Shown here: positions 1 through 48,967 of the stretch, in pieces
How positions within the stretch are numbered: position 1 is the stretch's first letter
How the letters are laid out: each line of letters opens with the position of its first letter
DNA from: a virus
Direction: 5' to 3' (one strand)
IMG/VR virus record: IMGVR_UViG_3300009838_000002
Location: 1-54,154 of that record
DNA: 54,154 nucleotides
Notes under the pieces: model-generated
Seen by the model: only the letters and a program-made list of their open reading frames with translations
Told to the model about the DNA's origin: nothing
Database searches by the model: none
Made by a program: the position numbers and the translations under genes

Positions 1-123
1 CGATGTCGTTATCCTGAACCCCGATAAATGGATTTAGAGGAAGATATGTCCTGGCTTGGTTTATCTGCTGCTTGCGAGACACTTCGTCCGCCCACTTTCT
101 GAACTCTGGATCGGTTTTATGGA
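1..123. repeat. Terminal direct repeat, left copy (identical to 54032..54154); indicates a circularly closed 54,031-bp genome
   Basis: cgatgtcgttatcctgaacc...tcggttttatgga at 1-123 recurs base for base at 54032-54154; the repeat lies inside an open reading frame. Confidence 0.95.
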
Positions 124-9478: not shown

Positions 9479-9507
9479 TTGACCTTTAAAGGTTCTTGTG
9501 TTATAAT
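9479..9507 (+). promoter_or_regulatory. Sigma70-type promoter for tnpB: TTGACC-N17-TGtTATAAT
   Basis: -35 at 9479-9484, extended -10 TGTTATAAT at 9499-9507, 17-nt spacer containing the 12-bp palindrome ACCTTTAAAGGT (9482-9493). Confidence 0.55.
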
Positions 9508-15540: not shown

Positions 15541-15555
15541 GATACCCCTAGCCTT
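15541..15555 (-). promoter_or_regulatory. Copy of the AAGGCTAGGGGTATC motif, 5 nt downstream of a -10 box
   Basis: Minus strand reads TATATT-GTAAA-GGCTAGGGGTATC; the identical 15-mer is at 20338-20352. Confidence 0.7.
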
Positions 15556-15558
15556 TAC

Positions 15559-15587
15559 AATATAACACCAAAATATACCAAAGTCAA
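15559..15587 (-). promoter_or_regulatory. Sigma70-type promoter for the head-gene operon: TTGACT-N17-TATATT
   Basis: Minus-strand -35 at 15587-15582 and -10 at 15564-15559; sits in the 99-nt gap after the portal gene. Confidence 0.55.
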
Positions 15588-15621
15588 TACTTTTCTCCTT
15601 AATTCTTTGAAATTCGACGTT

Positions 15622-17589
15622 TTACTGCGGTATTTGGCCGCCAACCTGCTGGAGTATTTGCGCGACTTGCGGAGGAACTTGTACCTGAGGAGGAGTCGGC
15701 GCCTGCGGCCCCTGCGGTTGCTGTGCGTTTCCTCCGGCGCGAGACGTTGGAGACATTCCTCCGGCCTGCATCTGTGCCATGCGTTGCATCAGTTCAGGAT
15801 CTCCGTCTCTGTATAGCATCTCGTCGGCTTCCCAGTTAAACGACTCCATGAATTTTCCAAGAACTGCGTCGTCTTTCATTCTGATTTGCCATCTCGGGTT
15901 CTGGCCCAATATCTTCGCAAACATCCCAATCTTTTCAAGCTCCTGAGCCCGTCCAAGAACATAAGACAGCCCATGAACAACGAAAGTGGTGTCGGTTCCA
16001 AGAAATTCGTATCTGGCCTCTGGAGACATATTTGCCAACTGATATGCCTCTGGAATTGAACGAACGAACTTTGGGTTGCTCCAGTCTTTTTGATACTGAA
16101 GCATTGTAAGAAAGAATTTCTCAAGGTATTTTTCTACCCAAGTCTTTTCAAGATCGGTGATGAAATACTCGAAGAGCATTGAAGACTCGCCGCTTTTCAA
16201 TGAGGCTTCGAGCGCCGAAACCCTTCCCTTTAAGCGGGGAGCCCCCGTCATCATTTCGCCTATACCGGAGAACATGGACTCCTTGTCAAGACCCTGGTAC
16301 AGGTTCCATACTCCACTCGGGACTCCGGGCTGCGCGATCTGGTTTATGAGATGTCCCGGCCCCTTCATTTTCCATACTTTTGCCGGTATGATCCCGGTTT
16401 CAAGTTGCTTCGGATCGAATAGGTTCTCCATGTCCATTTCGTATTGCTGAAGCGTGGAAAGACTCATTGAGTCTATGATAAGATTCAACAGCTCGATAAG
16501 GGCGTCAACGGTTCCCATCGCCATTCCGACAAGAGACTTGTGGTAGTTCGAGAATGGAACGTCTAGTATTCCGGCCACGACGTATGGGTTCTGTCGGTGG
16601 AAGAATGGGTTCTTCGTGGGTCTTCTTATGACATAGGACTCGTTGGCTATCGTGTAAGTTATGTTTTTCTGAAGCAGGTTTCCAGAAGTATCGTATAGGT
16701 TGCCCCAGTAGTGATCCATGACGATCTGAGGCTCATCGGGAACAGGTTCGTCAACTTCTCCTTTTCTCTGAGACTCCTCGTATTTCTCCTGCGTATTCCT
16801 GAAGTCCTGAGTGCCTTCCATTAACTCTGGAACATATTCATAGACTCCTTCGTCGCAAAGCTGGCGATACTCCCATAGTGGGTGGTAGGTTCTTTCGATA
16901 CAACACTCTTCATCTCTCCAGAAAAAGTACGGGTTCACGAGTTCGACTTCCGGGAAGTCGTCCTCTACGTCAACGAACTCGCCGTCTCTCATAACCTCTC
17001 TTTTGCGATACGACCACCCTATTCTTGCGATAAGAAGCTGGGAGAGAAGCCCTGTTTTAATGGCCTTGGAGAAGAAATGAAACCAGTCTGTTTTGTCCAG
17101 CCAGAACCTCATCATGCGCTTTATCATGTCAATGTAGGGCTGTTTTTCCGGAGCCACGTCAACCGTGAACCACTCTTTGACTTTCGCAAGTCCCTTGGTA
17201 AACGTAGATGCGGCTTTTTCCACCATGAAGAATACGCGCGGAGGGACGATCTGAGACTGCCAGTCGGCCTTTGTCGAGAAGTCGTAGAGGCCGTTGTATC
17301 TGTCCCAGTTTTGATCCCACTGACGCTTATGAATAAGTCTTCTGTCGTCGAGGTTGTGCCTTCTGGTATTAAGTCGAGTTACGAGTTCTGCGTCAGACAT
17401 CTCGCCGTATTTTTTAGACGTGGTGTCCGAGTCGTGCATTTTTATGGGGATACTTCCATCGTCCGGGGCCTCAGTCATCAGAGCTTCGGCTATGGACATT
17501 TCCCGGGTTCCCTCTCTAGTATTCGTCCCTTGATCCACGACAGTAGGCTCGGCGATCCCAGCTTCGAGCATTTCTCTTGTGGCGTCCAT
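15622..17589 (-). CDS. Portal protein (655 aa)
   Basis: Size and position immediately after TerL; C-terminal Q/P-rich tail. Confidence 0.75.
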   Translation of the reverse strand: MDATREMLEAGIAEPTVVDQGTNTREGTREMSIAEALMTEAPDDGSIPIKMHDSDTTSKKYGEMSDAELVTRLNTRRHNLDDRRLIHKRQWDQNWDRYNGLYDFSTKADWQSQIVPPRVFFMVEKAASTFTKGLAKVKEWFTVDVAPEKQPYIDMIKRMMRFWLDKTDWFHFFSKAIKTGLLSQLLIARIGWSYRKREVMRDGEFVDVEDDFPEVELVNPYFFWRDEECCIERTYHPLWEYRQLCDEGVYEYVPELMEGTQDFRNTQEKYEESQRKGEVDEPVPDEPQIVMDHYWGNLYDTSGNLLQKNITYTIANESYVIRRPTKNPFFHRQNPYVVAGILDVPFSNYHKSLVGMAMGTVDALIELLNLIIDSMSLSTLQQYEMDMENLFDPKQLETGIIPAKVWKMKGPGHLINQIAQPGVPSGVWNLYQGLDKESMFSGIGEMMTGAPRLKGRVSALEASLKSGESSMLFEYFITDLEKTWVEKYLEKFFLTMLQYQKDWSNPKFVRSIPEAYQLANMSPEARYEFLGTDTTFVVHGLSYVLGRAQELEKIGMFAKILGQNPRWQIRMKDDAVLGKFMESFNWEADEMLYRDGDPELMQRMAQMQAGGMSPTSRAGGNAQQPQGPQAPTPPQVQVPPQVAQILQQVGGQIPQ

Positions 17590-17599
17590 AGTGGGCCTC

Positions 17600-19900
17600 C
17601 TATCTGAATCTGTAGCTTGGAGTTATTTCTTTGCCTTGAAAAGGGCTTTCTCGCGTCGTGGGAGCCCCGGTTTCGAGGTAATTTATGACGGTAAATTGAA
17701 GACAATCCTGGCAGTTGTGAACCATTATTCCGTTGGCGGGGAAGTTGTGGTATTTTTCTACTTCTAAGTTATAGACATCCTCAAATCCAAAAGGAGTAAT
17801 GCTTATTACTTTGTGGTTGTGGAACGAAGTCGCCTTTCCTCTTCTTTTTCTTGAAGTCATCCTCCAAAGGCAGGATTGAGAGCAATACATCTGCTTTGGA
17901 GTTCCTTGGTATTTTTCTCCGCATCCTTCACATATTTTTTCAATTCTACTCGCGTCAATAAATGCTCTCATGCTTTTCCCGACTTTATCTCTACTCTCTT
18001 GTGTCCAAGGATTTAGGCTTTTGCCTGGAGAATTTTTGACAAATTCTTTTACGTTTTTTCTTAGACTATTTATCCTTGTAATCTCGTGTTCTTTTTTACT
18101 TAATAGCATCAGGTTTTCCGGGTTGTTGTTTCTTCCATTTCCGTCTATGTGATGAATAATTGATCCCTTATTGTCGAATCCACCGAACCAATGCCATATG
18201 TAGTGATGCTCATAAGTAAAGCTGCCGTCGTTAAGCTCTATAGAAGTATGTCCAGTTGTTTTTACGTTTTCATAGAGCGGCATCAGCGAGTCTCCCCCTT
18301 TAAGATCGCGCAATGCCCTATAAGATCCGTCTCGCATCATAATTAAGTGATCTGGGGTGGCTATTATTTCTCCGTTGTCGTATGTCAATTTCCAAACCTC
18401 TGCGTTCTCTCTTGTCTTGCGGACTCCAGTTGCCTTCGCGGGAATAAGTCTTTTGTGCTCTTCTGAGTAGGCATAGGTGTAAAATTCTTGTCCCACAAGT
18501 TCTTTTATTGGCTTCCAGCCATTCAGAGTCCTAACCAACGAGCTTCCGGACAGGCAATGCTCATAATACGAATCGGCGGCTGGATGGCGTTTTTCGGCTT
18601 CATTCTTCGGTTCTTTGGCCCAAACATAGCCGTCTTCCATTCCCTCAATGAGTATCGGGCAATATCTTCCGTCTATCTGCAATGCAGGCTTTCCAGACAC
18701 CATGCGGTTTAACATGGCCACTACTTTTCCAATGCGATATTCATAGGTGGCTTTCTTGAATTTGGGCGACAAATTGAACGGAGGGTTTTTCATAATGTCC
18801 AGCCTGGTCTTCTCGCTCAAGTCTGACTTCATCACTCCCTGGGAGTCGCAACAGTCCACAAAGTCAAAGTCGGCGAACCAATCCAGGCTTCGCTCAAGGC
18901 CAAGTTCCAGGAAGCGCTCTATTTGAATTTTCTCCGGCATGAACTCGCGAAGGACGTTGAGTCTGTTTCCGGGGAGTCGCTGAGAAAAAAGAAGCGCCGG
19001 CCGATGGTAGCCAAAATCCCATGATCGAATGATCGGGAAGTCGTATTCTGGTTTTAAGCCTTCTCCTGAAACGTGAGTTTCCTTGTTGAATGTCCCGTGA
19101 TAAACCGGATCGCCGTAAATATCAGAACCCCATTCTCCAAGAACGTATCGCTTGTAGAGCGAAGGAGAATGGGCATATTGGCGCTTAATGGTTTCTTTGT
19201 ATCGTTCAGAAACATAAGGAACGTCGTCTATCGAGGCAGAGAAAACAAAAAAACCTTCGGTTCTTTCTTTCTCAAACCTCTTGAATAGCCAATGCCCTTT
19301 ATTCGGAGGGTTTGTCATGAGAAGGCACCACCAAGGGTATCCGTCTCCTTGCCTTCCAATTCTTCCAAGGGCGGTGTCGAAGTATAGTTCTGCAAGTTCA
19401 TTGGCTTCTTCAAATACTGCGAATGAAAGAGGAAGGCCGCCGAGCTTAGCGGCCATGTCGCTTGATCTGAAAAGGACTCTGGACCTGTTTGGAAATAAAA
19501 CCCAGTCTTCTTTTTTGTTTTCTTTGAATGGAATATTGCTTTCTTGTAGGTCCTGAATGAACTCTGCGCGTATCGAATCCCCCATCTCGCGGTAGGTCTT
19601 GCGCCCGATCATTCCTTGTATTCCGGGGTATTTGCGGCACGTTTCTTTAACAACGTCTATTGCAAGTGCTGTCTTTCCGGTGTGCAATGCGCCCTTGAAA
19701 AGAACCACATTTGGCGAACCTGAACTCGGGGCGTAAAGCCTATCTTTTACTTTCTGCTGAATTTCTCCGTGGACTCGATCCTTCGAGTTGTCATACTCTT
19801 CCATCTCCACCTGAGACTGCATAATGTCGGCCATCTGCTGAAACATTATCTCTTCAGGAGAAGGGAAGCGCCCGCCCTGGATCTGGACAGTCTCTTTCAT
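17600..19900 (-). CDS. terL: Terminase large subunit, interrupted by an in-frame intein
   Basis: Walker A GALHTGKT; Walker B LSFAVFEEA. The nuclease motif is split as ..ADSYYEH | intein | CQDCLQF..; the exteins total 485 aa. Confidence 0.85.
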   Translation of the reverse strand: MKETVQIQGGRFPSPEEIMFQQMADIMQSQVEMEEYDNSKDRVHGEIQQKVKDRLYAPSSGSPNVVLFKGALHTGKTALAIDVVKETCRKYPGIQGMIGRKTYREMGDSIRAEFIQDLQESNIPFKENKKEDWVLFPNRSRVLFRSSDMAAKLGGLPLSFAVFEEANELAELYFDTALGRIGRQGDGYPWWCLLMTNPPNKGHWLFKRFEKERTEGFFVFSASIDDVPYVSERYKETIKRQYAHSPSLYKRYVLGEWGSDIYGDPVYHGTFNKETHVSGEGLKPEYDFPIIRSWDFGYHRPALLFSQRLPGNRLNVLREFMPEKIQIERFLELGLERSLDWFADFDFVDCCDSQGVMKSDLSEKTRLDIMKNPPFNLSPKFKKATYEYRIGKVVAMLNRMVSGKPALQIDGRYCPILIEGMEDGYVWAKEPKNEAEKRHPAADSYYEHCLSGSSLVRTLNGWKPIKELVGQEFYTYAYSEEHKRLIPAKATGVRKTRENAEVWKLTYDNGEIIATPDHLIMMRDGSYRALRDLKGGDSLMPLYENVKTTGHTSIELNDGSFTYEHHYIWHWFGGFDNKGSIIHHIDGNGRNNNPENLMLLSKKEHEITRINSLRKNVKEFVKNSPGKSLNPWTQESRDKVGKSMRAFIDASRIEKICEGCGEKYQGTPKQMYCSQSCLWRMTSRKRRGKATSFHNHKVISITPFGFEDVYNLEVEKYHNFPANGIMVHNCQDCLQFTVINYLETGAPTTRESPFQGKEITPSYRFR
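17714..18556 (-). other. Intein (281 aa, residues 449-729 of TerL) carrying an HNH endonuclease and a zinc ribbon
   Basis: Starts at Cys (TGC 18556-18554; CLSGSSLV), has TPDH block B, ends ..GIMVHN (AAC 17716-17714) and is followed by Cys+1. Internal HHIDGNGRNNNPENLMLLSKKEHE and CEGCGEKY..YCSQSC. Confidence 0.85.
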
Positions 19901-20355
19901 TCCTCGTGTTCCTTGAGCATATTTGCCTTTTGAACCTCATAGGCAACGGGGTTTATATGCGAAGCAAACGATCTGGTGGCGTCAAGAATTGCCCTGCGCT
20001 GCGCCGGATCGGTGATACACACGAACACCACTTCATTGACGTAGCGCATGAGCATATTCTGGTTTATATCAACCTTCAGGGTTATTCCATCTTGAATTTC
20101 CTTGGCGCGTTTGGCTGTTCTGGAAACACTTTCCAGCATGTCGGTGATGGTTTTCAGGTTCGCAAGGTAGCCCGGTTCAAACTTTGAAGGAGGAACGTCT
20201 TTTCTCTCTTCAACCTCATCCTGGGCCATATAAACAAGAGTCCGCATCTTTGCCATCTCGTCCACGAGAGACATTGGCGCCGGACTCCGTAGAAATTCCT
20301 GATAGGTTTTCTTATATTTTTCTGGAATGTTGCACGTAAGGCTAGGGGTATCCAT
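19897..20355 (-). CDS. Putative terminase small subunit (152 aa)
   Basis: ATGA overlap with terL; no SD; the ATG lies 6 nt after a -10 box. Confidence 0.55.
   Translation of the reverse strand: MDTPSLTCNIPEKYKKTYQEFLRSPAPMSLVDEMAKMRTLVYMAQDEVEERKDVPPSKFEPGYLANLKTITDMLESVSRTAKRAKEIQDGITLKVDINQNMLMRYVNEVVFVCITDPAQRRAILDATRSFASHINPVAYEVQKANMLKEHEE
20338..20352 (+). promoter_or_regulatory. Copy of the AAGGCTAGGGGTATC motif, antisense over codons 2-6 of the putative terS
   Basis: Exact 15-mer shared with 15541-15555; lies at about +4 to +18 of the leaderless transcript. Confidence 0.7.
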
Positions 20356-20361
20356 GCTGAC

Positions 20362-20390
20362 ATTCTAGCACATGGAAATTTATTTGTAAA
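20362..20390 (-). promoter_or_regulatory. Sigma70-type promoter TTTACA-N17-TGcTAGAAT, 6 nt from the ATG (leaderless)
   Basis: Minus strand reads TTTACA aataaatttccatgtgc TAGAAT gtcagc ATG. Confidence 0.55.
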
Positions 20391-20589
20391 GGGTTTGCTT
20401 CGTTTTTCTAGTTATTTCTTTGATATTCGAGGTTATTCTGGGTTAATTACTCTTCTGAGTCCTTCGAGAATTATATTGATCCTGGCGATGGAAACTAAAC
20501 TTTTTTGAACATCTTTTTCTATGGCCGAAAGCCTCATTTCAAACTCAGCTTCTTCCTGAGACTCAACCGAAGGCTTGGCGAAGCGGCTT

Positions 20590-20748
20590 TTATTCGGGAA
20601 GTTTTCCGGCATCTACGATCTTCCCTTCGATGGAGGTTTCAAAAGAAACAGGAGGAATCTCTACGTCAGGTCCATTTCCTCGTGCTTTCTGTAATGACAA
20701 AATTTTTTCGAGCTCCATTTGAATTTGAGGACTTTCCACATCAGACAT
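20590..20748 (-). CDS. Hypothetical small protein (52 aa)
   Basis: ATG at 20748 overlaps the stop of 20741..21310 (ATGTCTGA); below the ORF-track size cutoff. Confidence 0.4.
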   Translation of the reverse strand: MSDVESPQIQMELEKILSLQKARGNGPDVEIPPVSFETSIEGKIVDAGKLPE

Positions 20749-21310
20749 TTTTCATCAACATTTCTTTCTTTATTTTGTTTCTACACCTGATAGGATGTTT
20801 GTTTATCTCCTCCTCCGTGAGTCTCAATGTTCTATATCCCTTAAAACCCAGCAGAACATCTTTGTTTATGTCCTTGTCTTTGGCTTTTTGTGGCGAGTGC
20901 CAATACCTTCCATCTGCCTCAATTCTTAAATCAGGAGGAATGAAAAAGTCGGCTATGCAAATACCCTCTATTCTCTTTTGCGTCTCGTAGGCAATGCCAA
21001 GTGAGTCCAGGATCTTCATCGTTTTTATTTCGATGGAGGTTTCTTTATTGGGCATTTGTGACTTGCAATAAATGCCGTTGCAACGATAAGAGCAGAATAC
21101 ATTTTGCCTTTTCATTCCAGATGGTCGCCTTATTAGTTCTTTGCCACACTGTTTACACTTTACCGTTTCTCTCTTCATTCGGGCTTTTCCGTGGCAAGTA
21201 TTAGAGCAAAACAATCCCCCGCCGATTTCAATGTAAAAGGGAGTCGTCTTAAATTCTTTACCGCATTGTTGGCATATTCGTATTATGGCTTTTCTATAAG
21301 AGATGCCCAT
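20741..21310 (-). CDS. PD-(D/E)XK (Vsr/DUF559-like) endonuclease with zinc-ribbon repeats; probable free-standing homing endonuclease
   Basis: CQQCGKEF..FCSNTC and CKQCGKEL..FCSYRC repeats; C-terminus ..ADFFIPPDLRIEADGRYWH.. Confidence 0.65.
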   Translation of the reverse strand: MGISYRKAIIRICQQCGKEFKTTPFYIEIGGGLFCSNTCHGKARMKRETVKCKQCGKELIRRPSGMKRQNVFCSYRCNGIYCKSQMPNKETSIEIKTMKILDSLGIAYETQKRIEGICIADFFIPPDLRIEADGRYWHSPQKAKDKDINKDVLLGFKGYRTLRLTEEEINKHPIRCRNKIKKEMLMKNV

Positions 21311-21350
21311 ACATTTTCGAGAACAGAATTTTCCTCCACCGGCTTTAATT

Positions 21351-21470
21351 CTAGGAATACTTTTGCTGTGTTTTACCGATACTGCAACACTGCAGAGAAC
21401 AGTATTTTTTCCGATTTCGACAAGGATAAGTTTTGAATTCTTTTCCGCAAATCTCGCAATTAGATATCAT
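21351..21470 (-). CDS. 39-aa ORF encoding a third zinc-ribbon repeat, one frame off from 20741..21310 (possible frameshifted 5' end)
   Basis: MISNCEICGKEFKTYPCRNRKKYCSLQC..; the downstream gene's frame is open back to 21466. Confidence 0.4.
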   Translation of the reverse strand: MISNCEICGKEFKTYPCRNRKKYCSLQCCSIGKTQQKYS

Positions 21471-21542
21471 TGCTTCTCTTAAACGTGAAAAAACATTTTT
21501 TTCGTTCAAAGAATAGGGTGATGTTGTAAAATTACTTCTCGC

Positions 21543-21827
21543 TCACTTCTTTTTCGCGATGCTGACGGACTTCACCGGATACGGCACCGAGAACTTGATG
21601 TCCTGTATGGCGAAAAACCCGCACTTCGCGCAGGCCTTTCCCGTAGCCGTCACCCCTAGTTCCGGGGTATCCACGTCAATGTTCACCGGAATCGTCCATT
21701 TCCCAATAAACCAGAACTGGAAAATCTTGTCAACCTTGATCTGGATAGGGGGAATAGTCAAGGGGATTTCTTTTTCAACATATAATCCAGAGGGGAAATC
21801 TTTTTCCGCGCACTTAGGGCAACTCAT
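21543..21827 (-). CDS. Hypothetical Cys-containing protein (94 aa)
   Basis: ATG at 21827 (MSCPKCAEKD..) with AAGGA upstream; the longer ORF-track extension is R/G-rich off-frame sequence. Confidence 0.5.
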   Translation of the reverse strand: MSCPKCAEKDFPSGLYVEKEIPLTIPPIQIKVDKIFQFWFIGKWTIPVNIDVDTPELGVTATGKACAKCGFFAIQDIKFSVPYPVKSVSIAKKK

Positions 21828-21883
21828 TTTTGCACCGTCCTTCTTTGTTTTTGCAATGTTGCTACAATGTTGTTGTAATGTTG

Positions 21884-22174
21884 CTATTTTGCCGTTGCTG
21901 CGTCCGCCGCGTCCTGCGCCGCTTGTTCCGCCGCCAGCTTCGCCCGGAAAAATTTCAGCGTGCTCTCGACAATCGGGCCGCCCATCGCTCCCGCCGCCGT
22001 CACTACGAGCCACCCCTGCAGGCCGTGGAAGCTCTTGAGCAGGTCCAGAATCATGCCCAGGTTTCCGGCCGCGAACGTCGCCGCGCCGACAATGACGCTG
22101 TAGAGATAGATTCTCAGTAGCCTGTTCCATGCCAACTGAGCAGGAGTCGGCGGAGCCTTTACTTTCTCAACCAT
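21884..22174 (-). CDS. Hypothetical membrane protein (96 aa)
   Basis: ATG at 22174 (MVEKVK..) overlaps the upstream stop by 8 nt; hydrophobic segments IYLYSVIVGAATFAAG and WLVVTAAGAMGGPI. Confidence 0.5.
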   Translation of the reverse strand: MVEKVKAPPTPAQLAWNRLLRIYLYSVIVGAATFAAGNLGMILDLLKSFHGLQGWLVVTAAGAMGGPIVESTLKFFRAKLAAEQAAQDAADAATAK

Positions 22175-22274
22175 TGTCGTCGTCCTCGCTTTCGTCAAAG
22201 AAGTATCCGCATCCAGGGCAATTCCATTCTTTTCCAATATGGATCATTGCCGATCCGCACACCGGGCAGTTCAC
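22167..22274 (-). CDS. Small zinc-ribbon protein (35 aa)
   Basis: GTG in a GTGA overlap with the upstream stop; VNCPVCGSAMIHIGKEWNCPGCGYFFDESEDDDNG. Confidence 0.45.
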   Translation of the reverse strand: MNCPVCGSAMIHIGKEWNCPGCGYFFDESEDDDNG

Positions 22275-22588
22275 GCGACTGAATTAACCTTGCAGACTGA
22301 CTCCTGTTTCTTGATCTGGGCCTTGACTGCGTTCACGCCAACCTTGCCAGTTCTTTCGCGAAGTTCGGATAGGTGAGTCTGATCGTTGAGTCGAGAAAAC
22401 TCTCCGAGATCGTCCTCCAGGGTTCCGAGGTGTTTGGCGCCGGAAGTCTTGCGAAGAGAACCGTCCTTGTCTCTGTGACGATGGCCGGGCATCTTTGGAG
22501 GATCATGAGGGCAATTCTCATTGTGGGTGCAGGGCAATTTTTCTCCGGGGCTATAGGGGCTGATCGGAGTCCTTGAAAGGCTATCCAT
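22271..22588 (-). CDS. Hypothetical protein (105 aa)
   Basis: ATG at 22588 preceded by AAGGAGGAA; about 170-nt leader from the promoter at 22763-22791. Confidence 0.55.
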   Translation of the reverse strand: MDSLSRTPISPYSPGEKLPCTHNENCPHDPPKMPGHRHRDKDGSLRKTSGAKHLGTLEDDLGEFSRLNDQTHLSELRERTGKVGVNAVKAQIKKQESVCKVNSVA

Positions 22589-22762
22589 GCTGTTCCTCCT
22601 TGGGGAGTGCATCCGAAGTCGGATGAGGCCGACTTACAACGACTCAATGAGTCTGGTTCGCTTTCGGCGATAAACTGCGGCCACATCCGCTTCGCTTAAA
22701 TATTTTGGGCGGGCTTAGGGCGGAGGGGTTGCGTCCTTCCGTGGGTAAACCCGCCAAAAAGA

Positions 22763-22791
22763 ATATTATCACATACCCCTAGCCTTGTCAA
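22763..22791 (-). promoter_or_regulatory. Sigma70-type promoter TTGACA-N17-TAATAT with the 14-mer motif filling the spacer
   Basis: Minus strand reads TTGACA AGGCTAGGGGTATGTGA TAATAT; the motif occupies 22773-22786. Confidence 0.55.
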
Positions 22792-22793
22792 TG

Positions 22794-23093
22794 CTATGGG
22801 GAGAAAATTTTACTATCTTTAAGCGCAGCCAACAAGTCTTTGACTATGCCACAAAATTGATGATGATCGAACGAGAATAGCTGTCCGCCTTTGTCGTCAT
22901 TCCAATAGCAATGCAGTTTTTCAACCAGGATGATCTCCAGTATTTCGTGCAGTAGGTTCTCTTTTGTCGCGGCGCACTTGGTCCCGATAGTAATTGTTCT
23001 GGTTTTAAAGACTCCTTCGGCGCCTTCTGTTTTGGGGTCATAGACAACTTTCCATTCGTAGCCGCAAATGCTAAGGGTTTTTGGGAGACTCAC
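22794..23093 (-). CDS. Hypothetical protein (99 aa)
   Basis: ORF track; GTG start 1 nt after the upstream TGA. Confidence 0.5.
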   Translation of the reverse strand: MSLPKTLSICGYEWKVVYDPKTEGAEGVFKTRTITIGTKCAATKENLLHEILEIILVEKLHCYWNDDKGGQLFSFDHHQFCGIVKDLLAALKDSKIFSP

Positions 23094-23094
23094 T

Positions 23095-23538
23095 TCACAG
23101 CCCCCTTATCCAGTCGAACACCGAGAACTTGGGCTTTGGCTCGACGAAGGATGTCTGTTGTTTTTTCAGGGCCTCTTCGTATTCTTCCTTCGCCTTTTTC
23201 TCGGCCTCCTCGGATGCCTTTATCTGTTCTTTTTTCCATGCGATCAACTGTTCTATGGTTTGAGGGGAGTCGAATAGCGGGGAAACTTGATTGAAATATG
23301 TCCTTCCGTAAAAATTAGCCAATGGATTATTAAACACGGGAACTTGAACATCAAGAATTATGTCTCCGTCTTTGTTGACAGAGGAAACCTCCAGCAACTC
23401 AGGAGTCAGATCTGCCTCGAATTTCTGGTCCTGCTTCCCGTCCCCTCCCTGTCGAATAGACTCCTTCTGGCCGGATTGGGACAGGTAGTAGATGACGGTT
23501 ACTTTCTTATTCATGAGATCTGGCTCTTCCCCTTTCAT
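23095..23538 (-). CDS. Hypothetical protein (147 aa; alternative start at 23514)
   Basis: ORF track; ATGA overlap with the upstream ORF. Confidence 0.5.
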   Translation of the reverse strand: MKGEEPDLMNKKVTVIYYLSQSGQKESIRQGGDGKQDQKFEADLTPELLEVSSVNKDGDIILDVQVPVFNNPLANFYGRTYFNQVSPLFDSPQTIEQLIAWKKEQIKASEEAEKKAKEEYEEALKKQQTSFVEPKPKFSVFDWIRGL

Positions 23539-23801
23539 CTTTCAGGTACTTCTTTTTTTTTCAAGGAGAGAGAGTCCGACGGCGAAGCCGGAGTCTCTTC
23601 TTCGGCTTCGGTTACGGGTACGGTTACGGATACGGTTACGGATACTTGTTTGGCATACCCTTCCGGCAACGGTTCTTCTAACCCTTTAGGAAAGGGTTTA
23701 AGTAACCCTTCAAGTAAGGGTTTCAAGAATGGCTTATCAAGGCCTCTAGGGCTGTTACAATTCCAAGAGGAGCAACCACGGCGCCGTGGTTCTTGCACCA
23801 C
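23535..23801 (-). CDS. Possible small P/K/E-rich protein (88 aa); coding status uncertain
   Basis: ATGA-coupled to the next gene, but the segment is packed with hairpins and tandem repeats and has a weak RBS. Confidence 0.3.
   Translation of the reverse strand: MVQEPRRRGCSSWNCNSPRGLDKPFLKPLLEGLLKPFPKGLEEPLPEGYAKQVSVTVSVTVPVTEAEEETPASPSDSLSLKKKEVPER
23610..23645. repeat. 12-nt tandem repeat x3 (GGTTACGGRTAC)
   Basis: ggttacgggtac ggttacggatac ggttacggatac. Confidence 0.9.
23774..23791. promoter_or_regulatory. Perfect 18-bp palindrome AACCACGGCGCCGTGGTT, 32 nt downstream of the RHH gene
   Basis: Read directly; no T-tract follows on either strand. Confidence 0.6.
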
Positions 23802-23822
23802 TCTTCTGCTTTATTGGCGAGT

Positions 23823-24122
23823 TCAAGTCGTTTGGAAAATAACATCATGGGCGCCCCCAGGAAAGTCTTTTTGTTCGCACATAACCATCCTATTTCCCAT
23901 TTTGTATATCCCAGACGGAACGGGAAGAGATCCGTGCAGCAGTTCGTCTAGGTTCTTGATCTCCAATGCCTCTAATTCAGAAAAAGGTTTCAAGATCGCC
24001 TTCTCCATCTCCGCCAGCACCAAGCGATCCAAAACTTTCACCATGCTTTCTCCGGTAAGCGCAGAGATCAGCTTTAACTTCTTCGCAGTCTCGGTGTATA
24101 TCTTTATGGTTTTCTGGCTCAT
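23823..24122 (-). CDS. Putative ribbon-helix-helix transcriptional regulator (99 aa)
   Basis: N-terminus KTIKIYTETAKKLKLISALTGESMVKVLDRLVLAE (beta strand then two helices); first gene of the minus arm at the divergent control region. Confidence 0.5.
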   Translation of the reverse strand: MSQKTIKIYTETAKKLKLISALTGESMVKVLDRLVLAEMEKAILKPFSELEALEIKNLDELLHGSLPVPSGIYKMGNRMVMCEQKDFPGGAHDVIFQTT

Positions 24123-24128
24123 GGTGGA

Positions 24129-24158
24129 ATTATACTACTTCGACTACTAATTTGTCAA
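24129..24158 (-). promoter_or_regulatory. Sigma70-type promoter TTGACA-N18-TATAAT, 6 nt from the ATG (leaderless)
   Basis: Minus strand reads TTGACA aattagtagtcgaagtag TATAAT tccacc ATG; no SD. Confidence 0.55.
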
Positions 24159-24160
24159 GA

Positions 24161-24171
24161 GGCTAGGGGTA
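24161..24171 (+). promoter_or_regulatory. Motif copy GGCTAGGGGTA abutting the -35 of the RHH promoter
   Basis: tgtcaa-ga-GGCTAGGGGTA-ggg. Confidence 0.6.
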
Positions 24172-24672
24172 GGGCAAAATTGAAACCCGATCCAAACCAA
24201 TTTTCCCCACACAGGCAGAGAAAAGGCAAGCGGACGGGGAGAGGAAATAGGGAAGTTCGTAATGGCGTCAAAAACGCACGGAAAAGACTTTGGGCGTGGA
24301 AAGATACCGACGGGCTAAAAAGAAAGCGGTTTTGACGGCAAAGAATAGGGCGGGTTTCGGAATTTGGTTTTGGTTGGAGGCTAATTTTCCTGGAGAGAGG
24401 AGAGAAAGGTCAGAGGCACGGAAAGAGAAAATAGCAAATTCGGTTTCGGAAAGGGGGAATAATGGCGCGGTTGTCGAGGAATTATGCGGAAGAGTTTTTC
24501 TGAGGCTGAACGAGGGGAGGGGGAGAGGAGGGGAATATGTCTGGTAAATGCTTGCTACGTTACCTGTGGGAAGATAGGGAAGTTCACTGCATGAAGACAA
24601 AAGGTATATCATAGCTGGCGGCCTACGGCATCGCAGCGCGGCGGACGCTCCGCCCCGTCCCCGCCCCCCCCC

Positions 24673-24707
24673 TTTCGCGCCTGGTTTTCCTCTCTTTTCG
24701 CGCCTGG
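24673..24707 (+). repeat. Direct repeat TTTCGCGCCTGG x2, 23 bp apart, upstream of the early promoter
   Basis: Copies at 24673-24684 and 24696-24707, 39-73 nt upstream of the -35. Confidence 0.8.
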
Positions 24708-24745
24708 AGATCGGCTTCTCATGCGCTTCTTCGGCTGCCTGCCTT

Positions 24746-24774
24746 TTGACATTATAATTGACATATGCTATAAT
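24746..24774 (+). promoter_or_regulatory. Perfect consensus early promoter TTGACA-N17-TGcTATAAT
   Basis: -35 at 24746-24751 and -10 at 24769-24774 with an upstream TG; embedded in duplicated TATAATTGAC (24753-62 and 24769-78); followed by GGCTAGAGGCA at 24785-24795. Confidence 0.75.
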
Positions 24775-24814
24775 TGACTCATCAGGCTAGAGGCAACAGA
24801 GAGGAGGCGAGATC

Positions 24815-25895: not shown

Positions 25896-26153
25896 TTGAC
25901 AAAACACGAAAGGAGGCGAATTTATGTCTCTTCTGGCCCACAAATCCGCCGGCCAACATCGGCGCGTGACTGCCGCGAATGGCTAGAGGCTGAACTTGAC
26001 GCCCAGGGCGAAAAGGCCGTCCATAACAGGTATGGTGGCGTTGACGGTGGCCTAAAGGCTGTCATCGAGACTTACGGAGAAATGATGTTCTCCCTCGGCA
26101 GAGACGACGCAAGGACCGCTTCGCTGCCGGATTCCTCTCTCAGAAGGAAATAG
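25896..26153 (+). CDS. Hypothetical protein; start unresolved
   Basis: The ORF opens with TTG and no SD, while the good GGAGG-N7-ATG at 25924 is in another frame and stops after 20 codons. Confidence 0.3.
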   Translation: MTKHERRRIYVSSGPQIRRPTSARDCREWLEAELDAQGEKAVHNRYGGVDGGLKAVIETYGEMMFSLGRDDARTASLPDSSLRRK

Positions 26154-31010: not shown

Positions 31011-31306
31011 AACATTCGCCAGGCTGGGGCGGGGCGAGGCCGAGAAAGAGACTTCCCGGGTATTGGGAGGTTGAGGATCCCATCGTAAAAAGGACGGGCA
31101 AGAAGTCGGCCGTCCATTACTATCCCAAACAGGAAATTGTTTCCCTGGCCGCAAACGTGGAATACGAAGGCGTCTGTGTGTATTCAAGAAATAAAGCCTG
31201 TGTGTCCAAGGCCGCCTTGTTGGAATACCCGGAGGCCCTGCTTTTTCTGCGAGATTTATTCGAGCTTTGGGCTCAAGAGCTTCCGCGAAAGAAGGAATCA
31301 AAATGA
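31004..31306 (+). CDS. Hypothetical protein (100 aa)
   Basis: ORF track; overlaps the upstream gene by 7 nt. Confidence 0.5.
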   Translation: MLKHSPGWGGARPRKRLPGYWEVEDPIVKRTGKKSAVHYYPKQEIVSLAANVEYEGVCVYSRNKACVSKAALLEYPEALLFLRDLFELWAQELPRKKESK

Positions 31307-31554
31307 AACCAGAGATAGTAAAGCCGGAAAAGGTAGAGCTTGAAATGGTAACAGGAAAGTTCATCCGGGCCGTCCGCAAGAGGTTCCGGTTAACTCAGGG
31401 ACAATTTGCCAAGGAGCTAGGTTTGCACCTATGGCAAATATACCGTATGGAAAAATACGGCAAGAAGATCCCTCGCGTTCATCTTTCAACAAGGATCGTC
31501 CTGCTGAAGGGTCTTTTTGACCTGATGAAAAAATACAAGAACCTTAAAAATTGA
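31303..31554 (+). CDS. XRE-family helix-turn-helix regulator (83 aa)
   Basis: ATGA overlap start; IRAVRKRFRLTQGQFAKELGLHLWQIYRMEKYGKKIP. Confidence 0.65.
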   Translation: MKPEIVKPEKVELEMVTGKFIRAVRKRFRLTQGQFAKELGLHLWQIYRMEKYGKKIPRVHLSTRIVLLKGLFDLMKKYKNLKN

Positions 31555-31683
31555 TAGCCCGCCTTCCCGGCCGTCTGCCCTGGCGCCGTTCAGTTTCTCT
31601 GCGTAGAGTCGCTGAAGATCACTTGTCCCTAACTTCTGAAGCGGGATCCTTCCGATAGTGGGGATCAGGTGCAAGGTATAACT
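31552..31683 (-). pseudogene. Remnant of a tyrosine integrase (N-terminal core-binding segment only)
   Basis: SYTLHLIPTIGRIPLQKLGTSDLQRLYAEKLNGARADGREGGLS, with a stop upstream. The reading frame then runs into the antisense of the HTH gene, and no catalytic domain is present anywhere in the genome. Confidence 0.6.
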
Positions 31684-31834
31684 TTATGCCATGTTCGTCC
31701 ATAATTTTTCTGACAAGCAAAGCCGGCCCGCTGTTCGGAACGCCTTTGTAAAGAGCTAAGATAGGCATAATATCAGTATTCACCCCCATTCAAAACATTC
31801 CTTCGGCATGGATAAAAATATTTTCCGCAAGGGC

Positions 31835-31863
31835 TTGACAAAGTAAAAGGGATCCGTTACAAT
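31835..31863 (+). promoter_or_regulatory. Sigma70-type promoter TTGACA-N17-TACAAT
   Basis: -35 at 31835-31840 and -10 at 31858-31863; 37 nt upstream of the ATG at 31900. Confidence 0.6.
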
Positions 31864-31899
31864 AAGGTTACGGAAGTTATAGGAAGGGACGAAAGCAGA

Positions 31900-32187
31900 A
31901 TGGAAAACCATATCAGCAAAAACGCGCCAAAAGGAATTTCCGACGACATCATACGCCATATCTATGAAGCCATGTATAAGCAACAGGGAAAAACCCTGGA
32001 AGAATGCGGCGCGGAAATAGGGCTGACGAAGCAGGGAATTAAATATCGCTTCAAAGCATTGGGGCTTGAAACTCGTCAGGTTCACTGGGACTTCCTTGCC
32101 GGGAGGAAGTCTTGCCCTCCCGGCGGGGCTCCTAATTCTAATGTAGCACAGTTCGCAGACTTTGTGTCGGAAAGGAAAAGTTTGTGA
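31900..32187 (+). CDS. Putative HTH DNA-binding protein (95 aa)
   Basis: GKTLEECGAEIGLTKQGIKYRFKALG resembles a helix-turn-helix; first gene after the promoter. Confidence 0.45.
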   Translation: MENHISKNAPKGISDDIIRHIYEAMYKQQGKTLEECGAEIGLTKQGIKYRFKALGLETRQVHWDFLAGRKSCPPGGAPNSNVAQFADFVSERKSL

Positions 32188-37173: not shown

Positions 37174-37376
37174 TAGAACACCGCGAGAACAAAATCAACT
37201 TACATCGCGCCACGCACACGCGGCCACACTGCCTGCGGGAGAAACGCTATGTCGTGGACACCGATTCGCAGCCCTGGAGCGCCTGGGACATCCTGAAGGC
37301 CGTGGCGACGTTCGCGATCGGATCCTGGATCGCCTGGCGAGTCCTGGACATCCTGGCCGGAGGGGGCGCGAAGTGA
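37170..37376 (+). CDS. Hypothetical protein with C-terminal TM segment (68 aa)
   Basis: ATGA overlap start; ..AVATFAIGSWIAWRVLDILAG. Confidence 0.5.
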   Translation: MIEHRENKINLHRATHTRPHCLREKRYVVDTDSQPWSAWDILKAVATFAIGSWIAWRVLDILAGGGAK

Positions 37377-37708
37377 AAGCACAAGTCCTCACTATCCTTC
37401 AAGCTCACCAAGGCCAGGCAGAGGCTATCACGGCGCGGGAGCTGGCCGGTTCTCTTGGCTTCCGTGACTCCCGGCAGATTAGACGGGCCATTCGCGACCT
37501 GCGGATGGAGGGCTATCCGATAGCGTCCAGCCCCACCGGGAGGCCGGGATACTTTTTTCCAACAGACCCAGATGAGGCGGCGCACTGTCTCGCCGTGATG
37601 ACGAACCAGATCCGGGAGATTGTCGTTGTTCAGCGCGCCGTAGGCCGTGCGTTCAACCTGGCTCTCCCGGCAGAGGCGCAACAGTTGCGATTCGAGGTGG
37701 CGGCGTAG
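37373..37708 (+). CDS. Putative winged-helix DNA-binding protein (111 aa)
   Basis: GTGA overlap start; ITARELAGSLGFRDSRQIRRAIRDLRMEGYPI. Confidence 0.45.
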   Translation: MKAQVLTILQAHQGQAEAITARELAGSLGFRDSRQIRRAIRDLRMEGYPIASSPTGRPGYFFPTDPDEAAHCLAVMTNQIREIVVVQRAVGRAFNLALPAEAQQLRFEVAA

Positions 37709-48752: not shown

Positions 48753-48832
48753 TGGAATACTTTATTGGATTGTTGGGCGGCCTTATTGCGAGTGCCTTTG
48801 TGGCGTTTTTATACCTAAAGAGCGCCATCTAG
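48752..48832 (+). CDS. Small hydrophobic peptide (26 aa), possible lysis accessory
   Basis: TAATG overlap with the endolysin stop; MEYFIGLLGGLIASAFVAFLYLKSAI. Confidence 0.4.
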   Translation: MEYFIGLLGGLIASAFVAFLYLKSAI

Positions 48833-48948
48833 TTTGACGCATTTGACGAGGAAAATTTCAATAGCCCTTGGATGGACTGCAGATCTATTCATGGCGAGAA
48901 CGGAGAGGACATAGTATTGTTTACCGGAGAGATCGCAAGCTATTCCGG

Positions 48949-48967
48949 GATACTAGCCCCTAGCCTT
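48949..48967 (-). promoter_or_regulatory. Degenerate motif copy (AAGGCTAGGGGCTAGTATC)
   Basis: Plus strand GATACTAGCCCCTAGCCTT; carries a 4-nt TAGC insertion relative to the consensus; no good promoter nearby. Confidence 0.4.

What the first reader, a model, noticed from the sequence alone, without database searches (positions are those of the whole stretch)
15541..24171. A 14-mer, AAGGCTAGGGGTAT, recurs at promoters of the minus arm: candidate operator or phage-specific promoter element
Exact copies of AAGGCTAGGGGTAT occur three times:
- 15542-15555 (minus strand), starting 4 nt after the -10 of the head-operon promoter.
- 22773-22786 (minus strand), filling the -35/-10 spacer of the promoter at 22763-22791.
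- 20338-20351 (plus strand), covering +4 to +17 of the putative terS transcript in inverted orientation.

Related copies:
- GGCTAGGGGTA abuts the -35 of the RHH-gene promoter (24161-24171).
- GGCTAGAGGCA lies at about +5 of the early plus-strand promoter (24785-24795).
- GGCTAGAGGCT is at 25981-25991.
- A copy with a 4-nt insertion is at 48949-48967.

Three identical 14-mers in 54 kb cannot be chance. Their fixed association with promoters points to a shared regulator site. Candidate regulators are the RHH protein 23823-24122, the XRE protein 31303-31554 and the winged-helix protein 37373-37708.
Basis: seen in the sequence. Interest (0 to 1): 0.65.

Follow-up and report, generated by a model that had tools for sequence, protein, structure and literature searches.

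The report
Shared operator at phage promoters
A 12-base sequence (AGGCTAGGGGTA) sits on or beside five of the six strongest promoters of an uncultivated 54-kb phage and is most likely the binding site of one phage regulator that switches those promoters together, which is an ordinary kind of phage control element in a new phage.

Summary
AAGGCTAGGGGTAT occurs three times exactly, where none is expected. The conserved unit is the 12-mer AGGCTAGGGGTA, with four exact copies (15543-, 20339+, 22774-, 24160+). There are also two plausible degenerate copies (24784+, 48950-48967-).

The window is a complete circular phage genome. It has a SU10-type portal and adaptor, a lambda-like replication module, and no integrase, sigma factor or RNA polymerase that I could detect.

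All four exact copies lie within 45 nt of the predicted start of a near-consensus sigma70-type promoter (P about 2.5e-7). Five of the six strongest sense-oriented promoters carry the motif. Position and orientation differ from promoter to promoter: upstream of -35, in the spacer, across +1, and inside terS codons 2-6. That fits an operator and not a promoter element.

A relative with 79% nucleotide identity keeps the core at both sites that could be checked. More distant relatives carry different private motifs at the same promoter positions.

Best reading: an asymmetric operator for a phage-encoded repressor. The binder is unidentified. The Arc-like ribbon-helix-helix protein next to copy 4 is the leading candidate, and it is only a candidate.

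This is a new member of a known kind, of moderate interest.

The parts
15543..15554 (-). Motif copy 1 (core AGGCTAGGGGTA; 14-mer 15542-15555). Spans -2..+10 of the head-operon promoter, forward orientation.
   Evidence: conserved as AAGGCTAGGGGTATCA in relative L004
15559..15587 (-). Predicted sigma70-type promoter TTGACT-17-TATATT with TG, between the portal gene and the 75-aa head-operon gene (ATG 15522, Shine-Dalgarno GGAGG).
   Evidence: the -35, the -10 function and the ribosome-binding site are conserved in L004
20339..20350 (+). Motif copy 2, inverted relative to the promoter. Spans +6..+17, inside terS codons 2-6 (D T P S L).
   Evidence: the core and all its synonymous sites are kept in relative L130
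20362..20390 (-). Predicted promoter TTTACA-17-TAGAAT with TG. The terS ATG (20355) lies exactly 7 nt after the -10, which is leaderless geometry.
   Evidence: The terS start is fixed by homology of the N-terminus. L001/L005 and L002 have the same geometry.
22774..22785 (-). Motif copy 3. Fills -29..-18 of the spacer, forward orientation. The first A of the 14-mer is the last base of the -35.
22763..22791 (-). Predicted promoter TTGACA-17-TAATAT with TG. It precedes a roughly 170-nt leader and the small-gene/HNH operon upstream of terS.
24160..24171 (+). Motif copy 4 (GAGGCTAGGGGTAG as a 14-mer). Spans -49..-38 of the RHH promoter, inverted. It is also in the spacer, forward, of a candidate rightward promoter TTGTCA-17-CAAAAT (24152-24180).
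24129..24158 (-). Predicted promoter TTGACA-18-TATAAT (12/12). The ATG of the RHH gene (24122) lies 7 nt after the -10, which is leaderless geometry. The spacer holds the unique repeat AGTAGT-CGA-AGTAGT (24134-24148).
24784..24795 (+). Degenerate copy AGGCTAGAGGCA (2 mismatches) at +4..+15 of the early rightward promoter.
24746..24774 (+). Predicted early promoter TTGACA-17-TATAAT (12/12, TG) ahead of the plus arm (first ATG 24815).
48950..48967 (-). Degenerate copy AAGGCTAGGGG[CTAG]TAT in the convergent intergenic region, 55 nt past the late-operon terminator (49022-49044). Its function is uncertain.
23823..24122 (-). Candidate regulator: a 99-aa protein with an N-terminal Arc-like ribbon-helix-helix domain (residues 1-45). 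It is the first gene of the leftward arm.
   Evidence: AF2 with a 17-sequence alignment gave pLDDT 88 and strand-helix-helix topology. The top Foldseek matches are Arc, CopG, MatP, PutA and TacA (TM 0.6-0.78, E > 0.1). Pfam gave only weak RHH-clan hits.
31303..31554 (+). Candidate regulator: an XRE-type HTH protein.
   Evidence: Pfam HTH_3 4.9e-5; PHROG transcriptional regulator
37373..37708 (+). Candidate DNA-binding protein (HTH_11), immediately upstream of the replication O gene.
   Evidence: Pfam HTH_11 1.3e-5; phrog_2113

Best explanation
The repeated sequence is an operator: a 12-bp, non-palindromic binding site (AGGCTAGGGGTA) for one sequence-specific DNA-binding protein, most probably encoded by the phage.

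The phage relies on the host sigma70 RNA polymerase. Its strongest promoters are near-consensus and need no activator. The site overlaps or abuts the core of five of them:
- the head operon, at -2..+10;
- terS, at +6..+17, inverted;
- the operon upstream of terS, in the spacer at -29..-18;
- the early rightward promoter, at +4..+15, as a weaker variant;
- the divergent RHH control region, at -49..-38 of the leftward promoter and in the spacer of a candidate rightward one.

A protein bound at these positions would block RNA polymerase binding, open-complex formation or promoter escape. One regulator could therefore hold these promoters down together and release them together. Release might come from titration as the genome replicates, or from an antagonist.

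**Shown:** the sites, their statistics, their placement in predicted promoters, and their conservation.

**Inferred:** that a protein binds, that it represses, and that it is phage-encoded.

The Arc-like RHH protein encoded next to copy 4 is the leading candidate binder. I put that at about 0.3.
For: - Four exact 12-mers and three exact 14-mers where 0 are expected.
- All four cores lie 3.5-43.5 nt from the predicted +1 of one of only 12 genome-wide sites scoring 10/12 or better as sigma70-like. The analytic P is 2.5e-7.
- Five of the six such sites that are intergenic and sense-oriented carry the motif.
- Position and orientation vary relative to -35 and -10 (sequence). This is typical of operators and incompatible with a fixed promoter element.
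- The promoters are themselves near-consensus, most with an extended -10. The leaderless geometry at terS and at the RHH gene makes them credible.
- Phylogenetic footprint at the head promoter: in a relative with 79% nucleotide identity, the head intergenic region keeps only three blocks, namely the -35, a 16-nt block AAGGCTAGGGGTATCA, and the ribosome-binding site.
- Phylogenetic footprint at terS: the terS copy keeps all 12 core bases, including three synonymous sites, while about 13% of the neighbouring bases differ.
- More distant relatives have the same promoter positions but different private motifs. L001/L005 carry ACTACATATAGT, twice just after the -10 of the head promoter and in the spacer of the TerL promoter. 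L002 carries GTCAAC..TTGAC at the -35 of the terS and head promoters. This is as expected for co-evolving regulator and operator pairs.
- An Arc-like RHH gene is the first gene next to copy 4.
- The closest RHH homologue, which has the same beta-strand QKTIKI, has GGATAAGGGGTAT in its own promoter. This is a weak hint.
Against: - There is no experimental transcription start or binding data. All promoters are consensus predictions, and the host is unknown.
- The site is not a dyad, and it is a single site. RHH and XRE proteins usually read repeated or palindromic subsites.
- The RHH promoter has its own unique direct repeat, which may be the true RHH site.
- No lysogeny module was found. A repressor of late promoters therefore needs a release mechanism that I cannot see.
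- Only two of the sites could be checked in the close relative.
- No relative allowed a regulator/motif co-variation test. The RHH protein has no close homologues.
Confidence: 0.65

Rival explanations
1. The motif is the binding site of a host protein (a global transcription factor or nucleoid protein) that the phage uses to tie its strong promoters to host physiology.
For: - No phage binder is identified.
- The sites sit on host-type promoters.
- A CTAG-containing sequence is the kind of rare word that specific host factors often read.
Against: - Relatives with the same promoter layout carry unrelated motifs at the same places. They include one from the same metagenome sample as the close relative.
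- The 14-mer gave only single, scattered chance hits in 2.9 million viral contigs.
- The host is unknown, so host promoters could not be scanned.
Confidence: 0.12
2. The motif is a promoter element read by a phage-encoded sigma factor or RNA polymerase, as in the phiEco32 and 7-11 phages. Those phages share the SU10-type structural module, and their late promoters keep their genome positions but not their sequences.
For: - PMC8948821 reports that promoters dependent on phage sigma factors sit at conserved positions with lineage-specific sequences in phiEco32-like phages.
- I see lineage-specific motifs at conserved positions here.
- Copies 1 and 3 point the same way as the downstream genes.
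Against: - Two of the four exact copies are inverted relative to the local genes.
- Distances to the start codons are inconsistent.
- Every copy is embedded in a full -35/-10 host-type promoter.
- No Sigma70 or RNA polymerase domain was found in the ORFs scanned: nearly every ORF of 100 aa or more plus many smaller ones (Pfam; PHROGs).
- No homologue of phiEco32 gp36 was found (phmmer --max and tblastn).
- In L001/L005 the private motif is tandemly duplicated just after a perfect TTGACA-17-TATAAT, which looks like an operator pair.
Confidence: 0.08
3. The motif is a DNA-level site unrelated to transcription: a packaging site, a nick site, a homing-endonuclease target or a recombination site. 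Or it is a remnant of promoter duplication.
For: - One copy lies in terS, where pac sites often are.
- The phage has three HNH-type nucleases: the intein in TerL, the one at 20741-21310, and the one at 47228-47767.
Against: - The copies are spread over 9 kb, all at promoters and on both strands (P 2.5e-7).
- The flanks are unrelated, so this is not a duplication.
- pac sites are clustered, not dispersed.
- Relatives have different motifs at the same promoter positions.
Confidence: 0.07
4. The motif acts in RNA. The 5' end of the head-operon mRNA (AAGGCUAGGGGUAUC) is perfectly complementary over 15 nt to +4..+18 of the leaderless terS mRNA. Pairing would couple their translation or stability.
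For: Copies 1 and 2 share a 15-mer in opposite orientation, and both fall in predicted transcripts.
Against: - Copies 3 and 4 lie upstream of their promoters' start sites.
- In the relative the flanks of the terS copy changed (CAGG..GTAC) without matching change in the head copy. Complementarity therefore shrinks to the 12-nt core with no compensatory change.
Confidence: 0.05

Closest known systems
Phage P1 C1 repressor operators
   Same: A single asymmetric operator sequence is dispersed over the genome, usually as single sites at promoters of separate operons. PMC8546580 describes 22 operators with the 17-bp asymmetric consensus ATTGCTCTAATAAATTT.
   Different: There are only 4-6 sites of 12 bp here. 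No plasmid-prophage or immunity functions were recognised. No C1 homologue was looked for specifically, and the binder is unknown.
Mycobacteriophage L5 / cluster A gp71 operators and stoperators
   Same: An asymmetric 13-mer is read by a monomeric repressor, and the operator overlaps the -35 of the early promoter (PMC9283540). Here copy 3 starts at the last base of TTGACA and copy 4 sits one base from it.
   Different: L5 has more than 20 sites, many of them in non-promoter intergenic gaps, and their orientation is tied strictly to the direction of transcription. Here all good copies are at promoters and two of four are inverted. No integrase or immunity cassette was found.
P22 Arc/Mnt (immI) and other RHH repressors such as CopG or omega of pSM19035
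   Same: The neighbouring first gene has an Arc-like fold: the top Foldseek match is the Arc-operator complex 1par (TM 0.70). From general knowledge, Arc and Mnt operators lie between -35 and -10 or over the start site, and omega regulates several promoters through sites in either orientation.
   Different: From general knowledge, those operators are built from two or more repeated subsites (a 21-bp dyad for Arc, heptad arrays for omega). Here there is a single 12-bp site with at most a weak internal hexamer repeat (AGGCTA/GGGGTA). Binding is untested.
phiEco32 / 7-11 late promoters (Kuravirus, SU10-type structural module)
   Same: A related structural module (SU10 portal and adaptor). Lineage-specific short motifs sit at conserved positions ahead of late genes (PMC8948821).
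   Different: Those motifs are promoters for a phage sigma factor and replace the host -35/-10. Here the motif accompanies complete host-type promoters in variable position and orientation, and no sigma gene is present.

Membership tests
Sigma70-type bacterial promoters (the sites that carry the motif) | -35 TTGACA-like and -10 TATAAT-like hexamers 16-18 bp apart, upstream of and co-oriented with genes | tested here: met
   The sites at 15587, 20390 and 22791 score 10/12. Those at 24158 and 24746 score 12/12. Four of the five have a TG extension. In the 12-kb region, 23 sites were found against 9.7 expected in shuffles.
Sigma70-type bacterial promoters (the sites that carry the motif) | Transcription starts about 7 nt after the -10 | not testable with these tools
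   The support is indirect. The terS and RHH ATG codons lie exactly 7 nt after the -10 with no Shine-Dalgarno sequence.
Phage operator (repressor binding site) | A repeated specific sequence that overlaps core promoter elements | tested here: met
   Four exact cores at -49..-38, -29..-18, -2..+10 and +6..+17, plus a variant at +4..+15 (and the sequence).
Phage operator (repressor binding site) | Conserved in relatives beyond the level of the flanking non-coding DNA | tested here: met
   L004 keeps a 16-nt block in an intergenic region that is about 75% identical. L130 keeps 12 of 12 core bases, including the synonymous sites. Only two sites could be tested.
Phage operator (repressor binding site) | A cognate DNA-binding protein binds the site and changes transcription | not testable with these tools
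   Candidate proteins exist (RHH, XRE, HTH_11). None can be linked to the site.
Classical dyad-symmetric operators (lambda CI/Cro type) | Two-fold sequence symmetry | tested here: not met
   Only the central CTAG is palindromic. The halves AAGGCT and ACCCCT match at 3 of 6 positions (read from the sequence).
L5/cluster A stoperator system | Asymmetric 13-14-bp site | tested here: met
   The core is 12 bp and asymmetric.
L5/cluster A stoperator system | More than 20 sites, many in non-promoter intergenic gaps | tested here: not met
   Four exact copies and two plausible degenerate copies. Copies with 2 mismatches or fewer: 9 against 3.1 expected.
L5/cluster A stoperator system | Orientation correlated with the direction of transcription | tested here: not met
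   Two of the four exact copies are inverted relative to the local genes.
L5/cluster A stoperator system | A gp71-like repressor (HTH plus stoperator domain) and a lysogeny module | tested here: inconclusive
   Pfam and PHROGs scans found no integrase and no repressor family beyond a small XRE protein. gp71 itself was not used as a query.
Promoters for a phage sigma factor (phiEco32/7-11 type) | The phage encodes a sigma factor | tested here: not met
   No Sigma70 domain in any scanned ORF. phiEco32 gp36 has no match in any ORF of 50 aa or more (best E 0.37). A very divergent sigma factor cannot be excluded.
Promoters for a phage sigma factor (phiEco32/7-11 type) | Fixed orientation and distance to the genes served | tested here: not met
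   Orientation is mixed and positions are variable (sequence).
Ribbon-helix-helix (Arc/MetJ/CopG) superfamily, for the protein at 23823-24122 | N-terminal strand-helix-helix fold | tested here: met
   - AF2 on a 17-sequence alignment gave pLDDT 88: extended residues 1-9, then helices 10-23 and 27-44.
- Nearly all top PDB matches are RHH proteins (Arc 1par TM 0.70, rmsd 1.6 A). Foldseek E-values are above 0.1 because the domain is short.
Ribbon-helix-helix (Arc/MetJ/CopG) superfamily, for the protein at 23823-24122 | Significant match to an RHH sequence profile | tested here: inconclusive
   - ParD E = 0.1.
- PSK_trans_fac is matched by 5 of 17 homologues, best E 0.0016, all below the gathering score.
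- Nothing was found in earlier Pfam, PHROG or PDB searches.
Dispersed repeat / miniature mobile element | Similarity extends beyond the short core, with terminal repeats | tested here: not met
   The flanks of the five copies do not align.

The most novel reading that the evidence does not exclude
This is one instance of a family-wide design in uncultivated SU10-type podophages. Late genes are driven by constitutive, near-consensus host promoters at fixed genome positions (ahead of terS, ahead of TerL, and between the portal and head genes). Each promoter is gated by a private, rapidly exchanged operator/regulator pair. Late timing in an apparently virulent phage would then be set by de-repression, for example by operator titration during replication, and not by an activator or a phage sigma factor. 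Specificity would diversify as immunity specificities do in temperate phages.
Probability: 0.15. Interest if true: 0.55.

Novelty: new member of a known kind. Interest (0 to 1): 0.35.

Why it matters
If the reading is right, the motif gives a ready handle on gene regulation in a phage lineage known only from metagenomes. That includes a defined 12-bp operator, five defined promoters and a short list of candidate regulators, all of which can be tested in vitro without the unknown host.

Related phages keep the promoter positions but swap the motif. The sigma-factor-dependent relatives phiEco32 and 7-11 keep promoter positions too. Together these would show two different solutions to the same late-gene layout.

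As it stands, this is a conventional type of element, a phage operator, and not a new mechanism.

Tried and rejected
**Searches for relatives that gave little or nothing**
- No close relative in GenBank phages (megablast). tblastn with the portal found only a 21% match to a Microcystis phage.
- IMG/VR with portal peptides found nothing. The portal profile found only L005, which is the same phage as L001, plus three distant contigs.
- A scan of viral contigs for the 14-mer returned only single chance hits, unrelated to the window.
- Metagenome scan with concatenated proteins from the RHH region: nothing.
- Metagenome scan with the 18-mer TTGACAAGGCTAGGGGTA: one hit, inside an unrelated 493-aa ORF, judged to be chance.
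- Genome-contig scan with the portal profile: nothing. So there is no prophage or host information.

**Searches on the RHH protein and other candidates**
- The RHH protein has no close homologues in the 5.8-billion-protein set.
- The single-sequence AF2 model was useless (pLDDT 45).
- Contexts of distant RHH homologues showed no shared operator, apart from one weak GGGGTAT resemblance.
- PDB sequence searches for the 105-aa, HTH_11 and 246-aa proteins gave nothing.

**Other negative results**
- Rfam: no RNA family in the window.
- A k-mer search of intergenic regions for a second motif was dominated by ribosome-binding sites and terminator stems.
- No tRNAs.

**Interpretations rejected**
- A longer dispersed repeat.
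- A pac, cos or nick site.
- A promoter for a phage sigma factor.
Full report
**1. The observation**

AAGGCTAGGGGTAT occurs exactly at 15542-15555 (-), 20338-20351 (+) and 22773-22786 (-). None is expected in dinucleotide-preserving shuffles.

The unit that recurs is the 12-mer AGGCTAGGGGTA. It has four exact copies, the fourth at 24160-24171 (+), again against an expectation of zero.

With up to two mismatches there are nine sites against 3.1 expected. Two of these look meaningful:
- 24784-24795 (AGGCTAGAGGCA), at the early promoter.
- 48950-48967 (AAGGCTAGGGG-CTAG-TAT), in the convergent intergenic region behind the late terminator.

The flanks of the copies do not align, so this is a short site and not part of a longer repeat. 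CTAG is generally avoided in this genome (observed/expected 0.48). GTAC is avoided even more strongly (0.13).

**2. What the window is**

The two ends share 123 identical bases, so the window is a complete circular assembly of about 54,031 bp. It is identical over 20 kb to a 54.2-kb contig from JGI metagenome 3300010429.

The leftward arm runs 24122 -> 1 and wraps to 49070. In order, it encodes:
- a small Arc-like protein and several small ORFs;
- an HNH/DUF559 nuclease;
- terS;
- a large terminase interrupted by an HNH intein;
- a SU10-type portal, head genes, a SU10-type adaptor and tail genes.

The rightward arm (24815 -> about 48846) encodes:
- a primase-like protein and an SNF2 helicase;
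- YqaJ exonuclease, an AAA ATPase and RecT;
- an HTH_11 protein, a lambda O-like initiator with internal iterons, and a DnaC-like loader;
- RusA, a C5 methylase, a PAPS reductase-like protein, dNK and an M15 peptidase.

Nearly every ORF of 100 aa or more was scanned, and none showed an integrase, a sigma factor or an RNA polymerase. phiEco32 gp36 has no homologue here. The phage therefore appears to depend on host sigma70 polymerase. There are no close relatives among sequenced phages.

**3. Where the motif sits**

A genome-wide scan finds only 12 distinct sigma70-like sites scoring 10/12 or better. Six of them are non-coding and point the same way as the local genes. Five of those six carry the motif.

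Taking +1 as 7 nt after the -10, the placements are:

| Promoter | Sequence | Motif position | Orientation |
|---|---|---|---|
| P24158(-) | TTGACA-18-TATAAT | core at -49..-38 | inverted |
| P22791(-) | TTGACA-17-TAATAT | core at -29..-18, filling the spacer | forward |
| P15587(-) | TTGACT-17-TATATT | core at -2..+10 | forward |
| P24746(+) | TTGACA-17-TATAAT | variant at +4..+15 | forward |
| P20390(-) | TTTACA-17-TAGAAT | core at +6..+17, inside terS codons 2-6 | inverted |

Copy 4 also lies, in forward orientation, in the spacer of a weaker rightward promoter candidate, TTGTCA-17-CAAAAT (24152-24180). Its -35 overlaps that of P24158.

The chance that four random positions all fall within 50 nt of one of the 12 predicted starts is about 2.5e-7.

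The promoters are credible for three reasons:
- At terS and at the Arc-like gene, the ATG lies exactly 7 nt after the -10 with no Shine-Dalgarno sequence. This is leaderless geometry.
- Homology of the terS N-terminus fixes that ATG as the start.
- The same geometry recurs at terS in L001/L005 and L002.

**4. Conservation**

A relative from JGI 3300037067 has a portal 87% identical in protein and is 79% identical in DNA.
- It keeps AAGGCTAGGGGTATCA at the head promoter. About a quarter of the intergenic bases differ. The only other conserved blocks are the -35 and the ribosome-binding site.
- In its terS gene the core TACCCCTAGCCT is unchanged, including three synonymous positions. About 13% of the neighbouring bases, and the two outer bases of the 14-mer, differ. 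This agrees with copy 4 in showing that the 12-mer is the constrained unit.

More distant relatives keep the promoter positions but not the motif.
- L001/L005 (portal 51%) have ACTACATATAGT twice in tandem directly after a perfect TTGACA-17-TATAAT between the portal and head genes. The same motif appears once in the spacer of the TerL promoter and elsewhere. These phages also have a second, palindromic motif, TTTGTATACAAA.
- L002 has GTCAAC(AA)CTTATTGAC overlapping the -35 of both the terS and head promoters.

Lineage-specific sequences at fixed promoter positions are what co-evolving regulator/operator pairs produce.

**5. Mechanism**

The variable position and orientation, the overlap with the spacer, the -10 or the start site, and the intrinsic strength of the promoters all point to a repressor operator and not an activator site or a promoter element.

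I therefore propose that one sequence-specific protein binds AGGCTAGGGGTA and occludes or traps RNA polymerase at the terS, head, pre-terS and early/divergent promoters. These promoters would then be controlled as a set. Binding, repression and the identity of the protein are all inferred.

The neighbouring first gene (23823-24122) is the leading candidate:
- With an alignment of 16 distant homologues, AlphaFold gives a confident strand-helix-helix model (pLDDT 88).
- The best PDB matches to that model are Arc, CopG, MatP, PutA and TacA (TM 0.6-0.78).
- Sequence profiles give only weak RHH-clan hits.
- Its closest homologue, with the same beta-strand QKTIKI, has GGATAAGGGGTAT in its own promoter. 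This is a weak hint.

Against the RHH protein as binder:
- The site is not built of clear repeats.
- The RHH promoter contains a unique repeat, AGTAGT-CGA-AGTAGT, that could be its real operator.

The XRE (31303-31554) and HTH_11 (37373-37708) proteins are confirmed as HTH proteins but cannot be linked to the site.

**6. Rivals**

- **Phage-sigma promoter.** This had to be considered. phiEco32 and 7-11, which share the SU10-type structural module, have late promoters at conserved positions with lineage-specific sequences (PMC8948821). Three things speak against it: the absence of any sigma gene (and the Pfam scans), the mixed orientation, and the presence of complete host-type promoters at every copy.
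- **Host factor.** This is hard to square with relatives carrying different motifs at the same positions, but it cannot be excluded without the host.
- **pac, nick or endonuclease site.** The dispersed, promoter-bound distribution does not fit.
- **RNA pairing.** The 15-nt complementarity between the head mRNA leader and the terS mRNA is real. However, copies 3 and 4 are not in the matching transcripts, and the relative shows no compensatory change.

**7. Comparison with known systems**

The closest functional analogues are the dispersed asymmetric operators of P1 C1 (22 sites, 17 bp; PMC8546580) and of mycobacteriophage L5 gp71 (more than 20 13-mers, including stoperators; PMC9283540).

This case shares the asymmetry and the one-site-per-promoter layout. 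It fails the defining features of the stoperator system: many non-promoter sites, and orientation tied to transcription. No lysogeny module is recognisable.

P22 Arc and Mnt are the closest by fold of the candidate protein and by operator placement, but their operators are dyads.

I file the element as a new member of a known kind, a phage operator, with an unknown binder.

**8. Verdict**

The operator reading holds, the promoter-element reading does not, and the regulator is unassigned.
- Interest is moderate (0.35). The element is conventional. The conserved promoter layout with private motifs, and the leaderless terS and RHH genes, make a tidy and testable system in an uncultivated phage lineage.

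Noticed in passing
window 1-123 and 54032-54154: The two ends are identical over 123 bp, so the window is a complete circularly assembled phage genome of about 54,031 bp. It is 100% identical over 20 kb to JGI 3300010429 contig Ga0116241_10001042.
   Followed up: yes
window 17600-19900 (-): The large terminase gene is interrupted by an intein that carries an HNH endonuclease (Intein_splicing 2.2e-17, HNH_3 4.5e-10). Relative L002 has it too. The L001 and L003 terminases are intein-free.
   Followed up: partly
window 20355 and 24122; L135, L136, L137, L138/L139: terS and the Arc-like gene start 7 nt after a consensus -10 with no Shine-Dalgarno sequence, which is leaderless geometry. Distant homologues of the Arc-like protein in unrelated contigs likewise have a consensus -10 followed 6-8 nt later by their ATG, often as the first gene at a divergent junction.
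   Followed up: partly
window 24134-24148 (-): A unique direct repeat, AGTAGT-CGA-AGTAGT, lies in the spacer and -10 of the Arc-like gene's promoter. It is a possible autoregulatory operator distinct from the 12-mer.
   Followed up: partly
window 24180-24740: A purine-rich stretch of about 560 bp with internal imperfect repeats and no convincing ORF lies between the divergent promoters. A weak rightward promoter candidate (24152-24180) precedes it.
   Followed up: no
whole window: GTAC is almost absent (12 sites, observed/expected 0.13), CTAG is depleted (0.48) and GATC is enriched (1.60). This suggests restriction avoidance. The phage also encodes a C5 cytosine methylase (41821-43101).
   Followed up: no
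window 38164-38480 (+): Nine copies of CAATATTGCAAC, some as palindromic pairs, lie inside the lambda O-like replication gene. They are probably origin iterons.
   Followed up: no
window 40295-40425 (+): Tandem 9-bp repeats (ATGCCGCCT) lie inside ORF 39991-40509.
   Followed up: no
window 9479-9507 (+): A strong promoter-like site (TTGACC-17-TATAAT with TG, 11/12) lies antisense to the tail genes, at a gene junction in the leftward arm.
   Followed up: no
window 31555-31900: This region holds the only strong sense promoter without the motif (TTGACA-17-TACAAT, 31835-31863). It is divergent from a small minus-strand ORF (31619-31789) embedded in the rightward arm, just after the XRE gene.
   Followed up: partly
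window 48763-48846 (+): An unannotated 27-codon ORF with a strong ribosome-binding site encodes a hydrophobic peptide right after the M15 peptidase gene. It may be a lysis accessory.
   Followed up: no
L001 1635, 5068, 5133, 5866 (and L005): The 51% relative has a second motif family, the palindrome TTTGTATACAAA, in its control regions. This is in addition to ACTACATATAGT at its late promoters.
   Followed up: partly
L006 5531 and L007 548, 5901: Distant SU10-portal contigs have perfect TTGACA-16-TATAAT promoters that share GTTCTA in the spacer. This may be another lineage-specific promoter-embedded site.
   Followed up: no
L009 (ENA ERZ795054): A second sample holds the same phage with one difference in 726 bp: ATG to CTG at the leaderless start codon of the Arc-like gene. 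Coverage is about 2x, so it may be a sequencing error.
   Followed up: no
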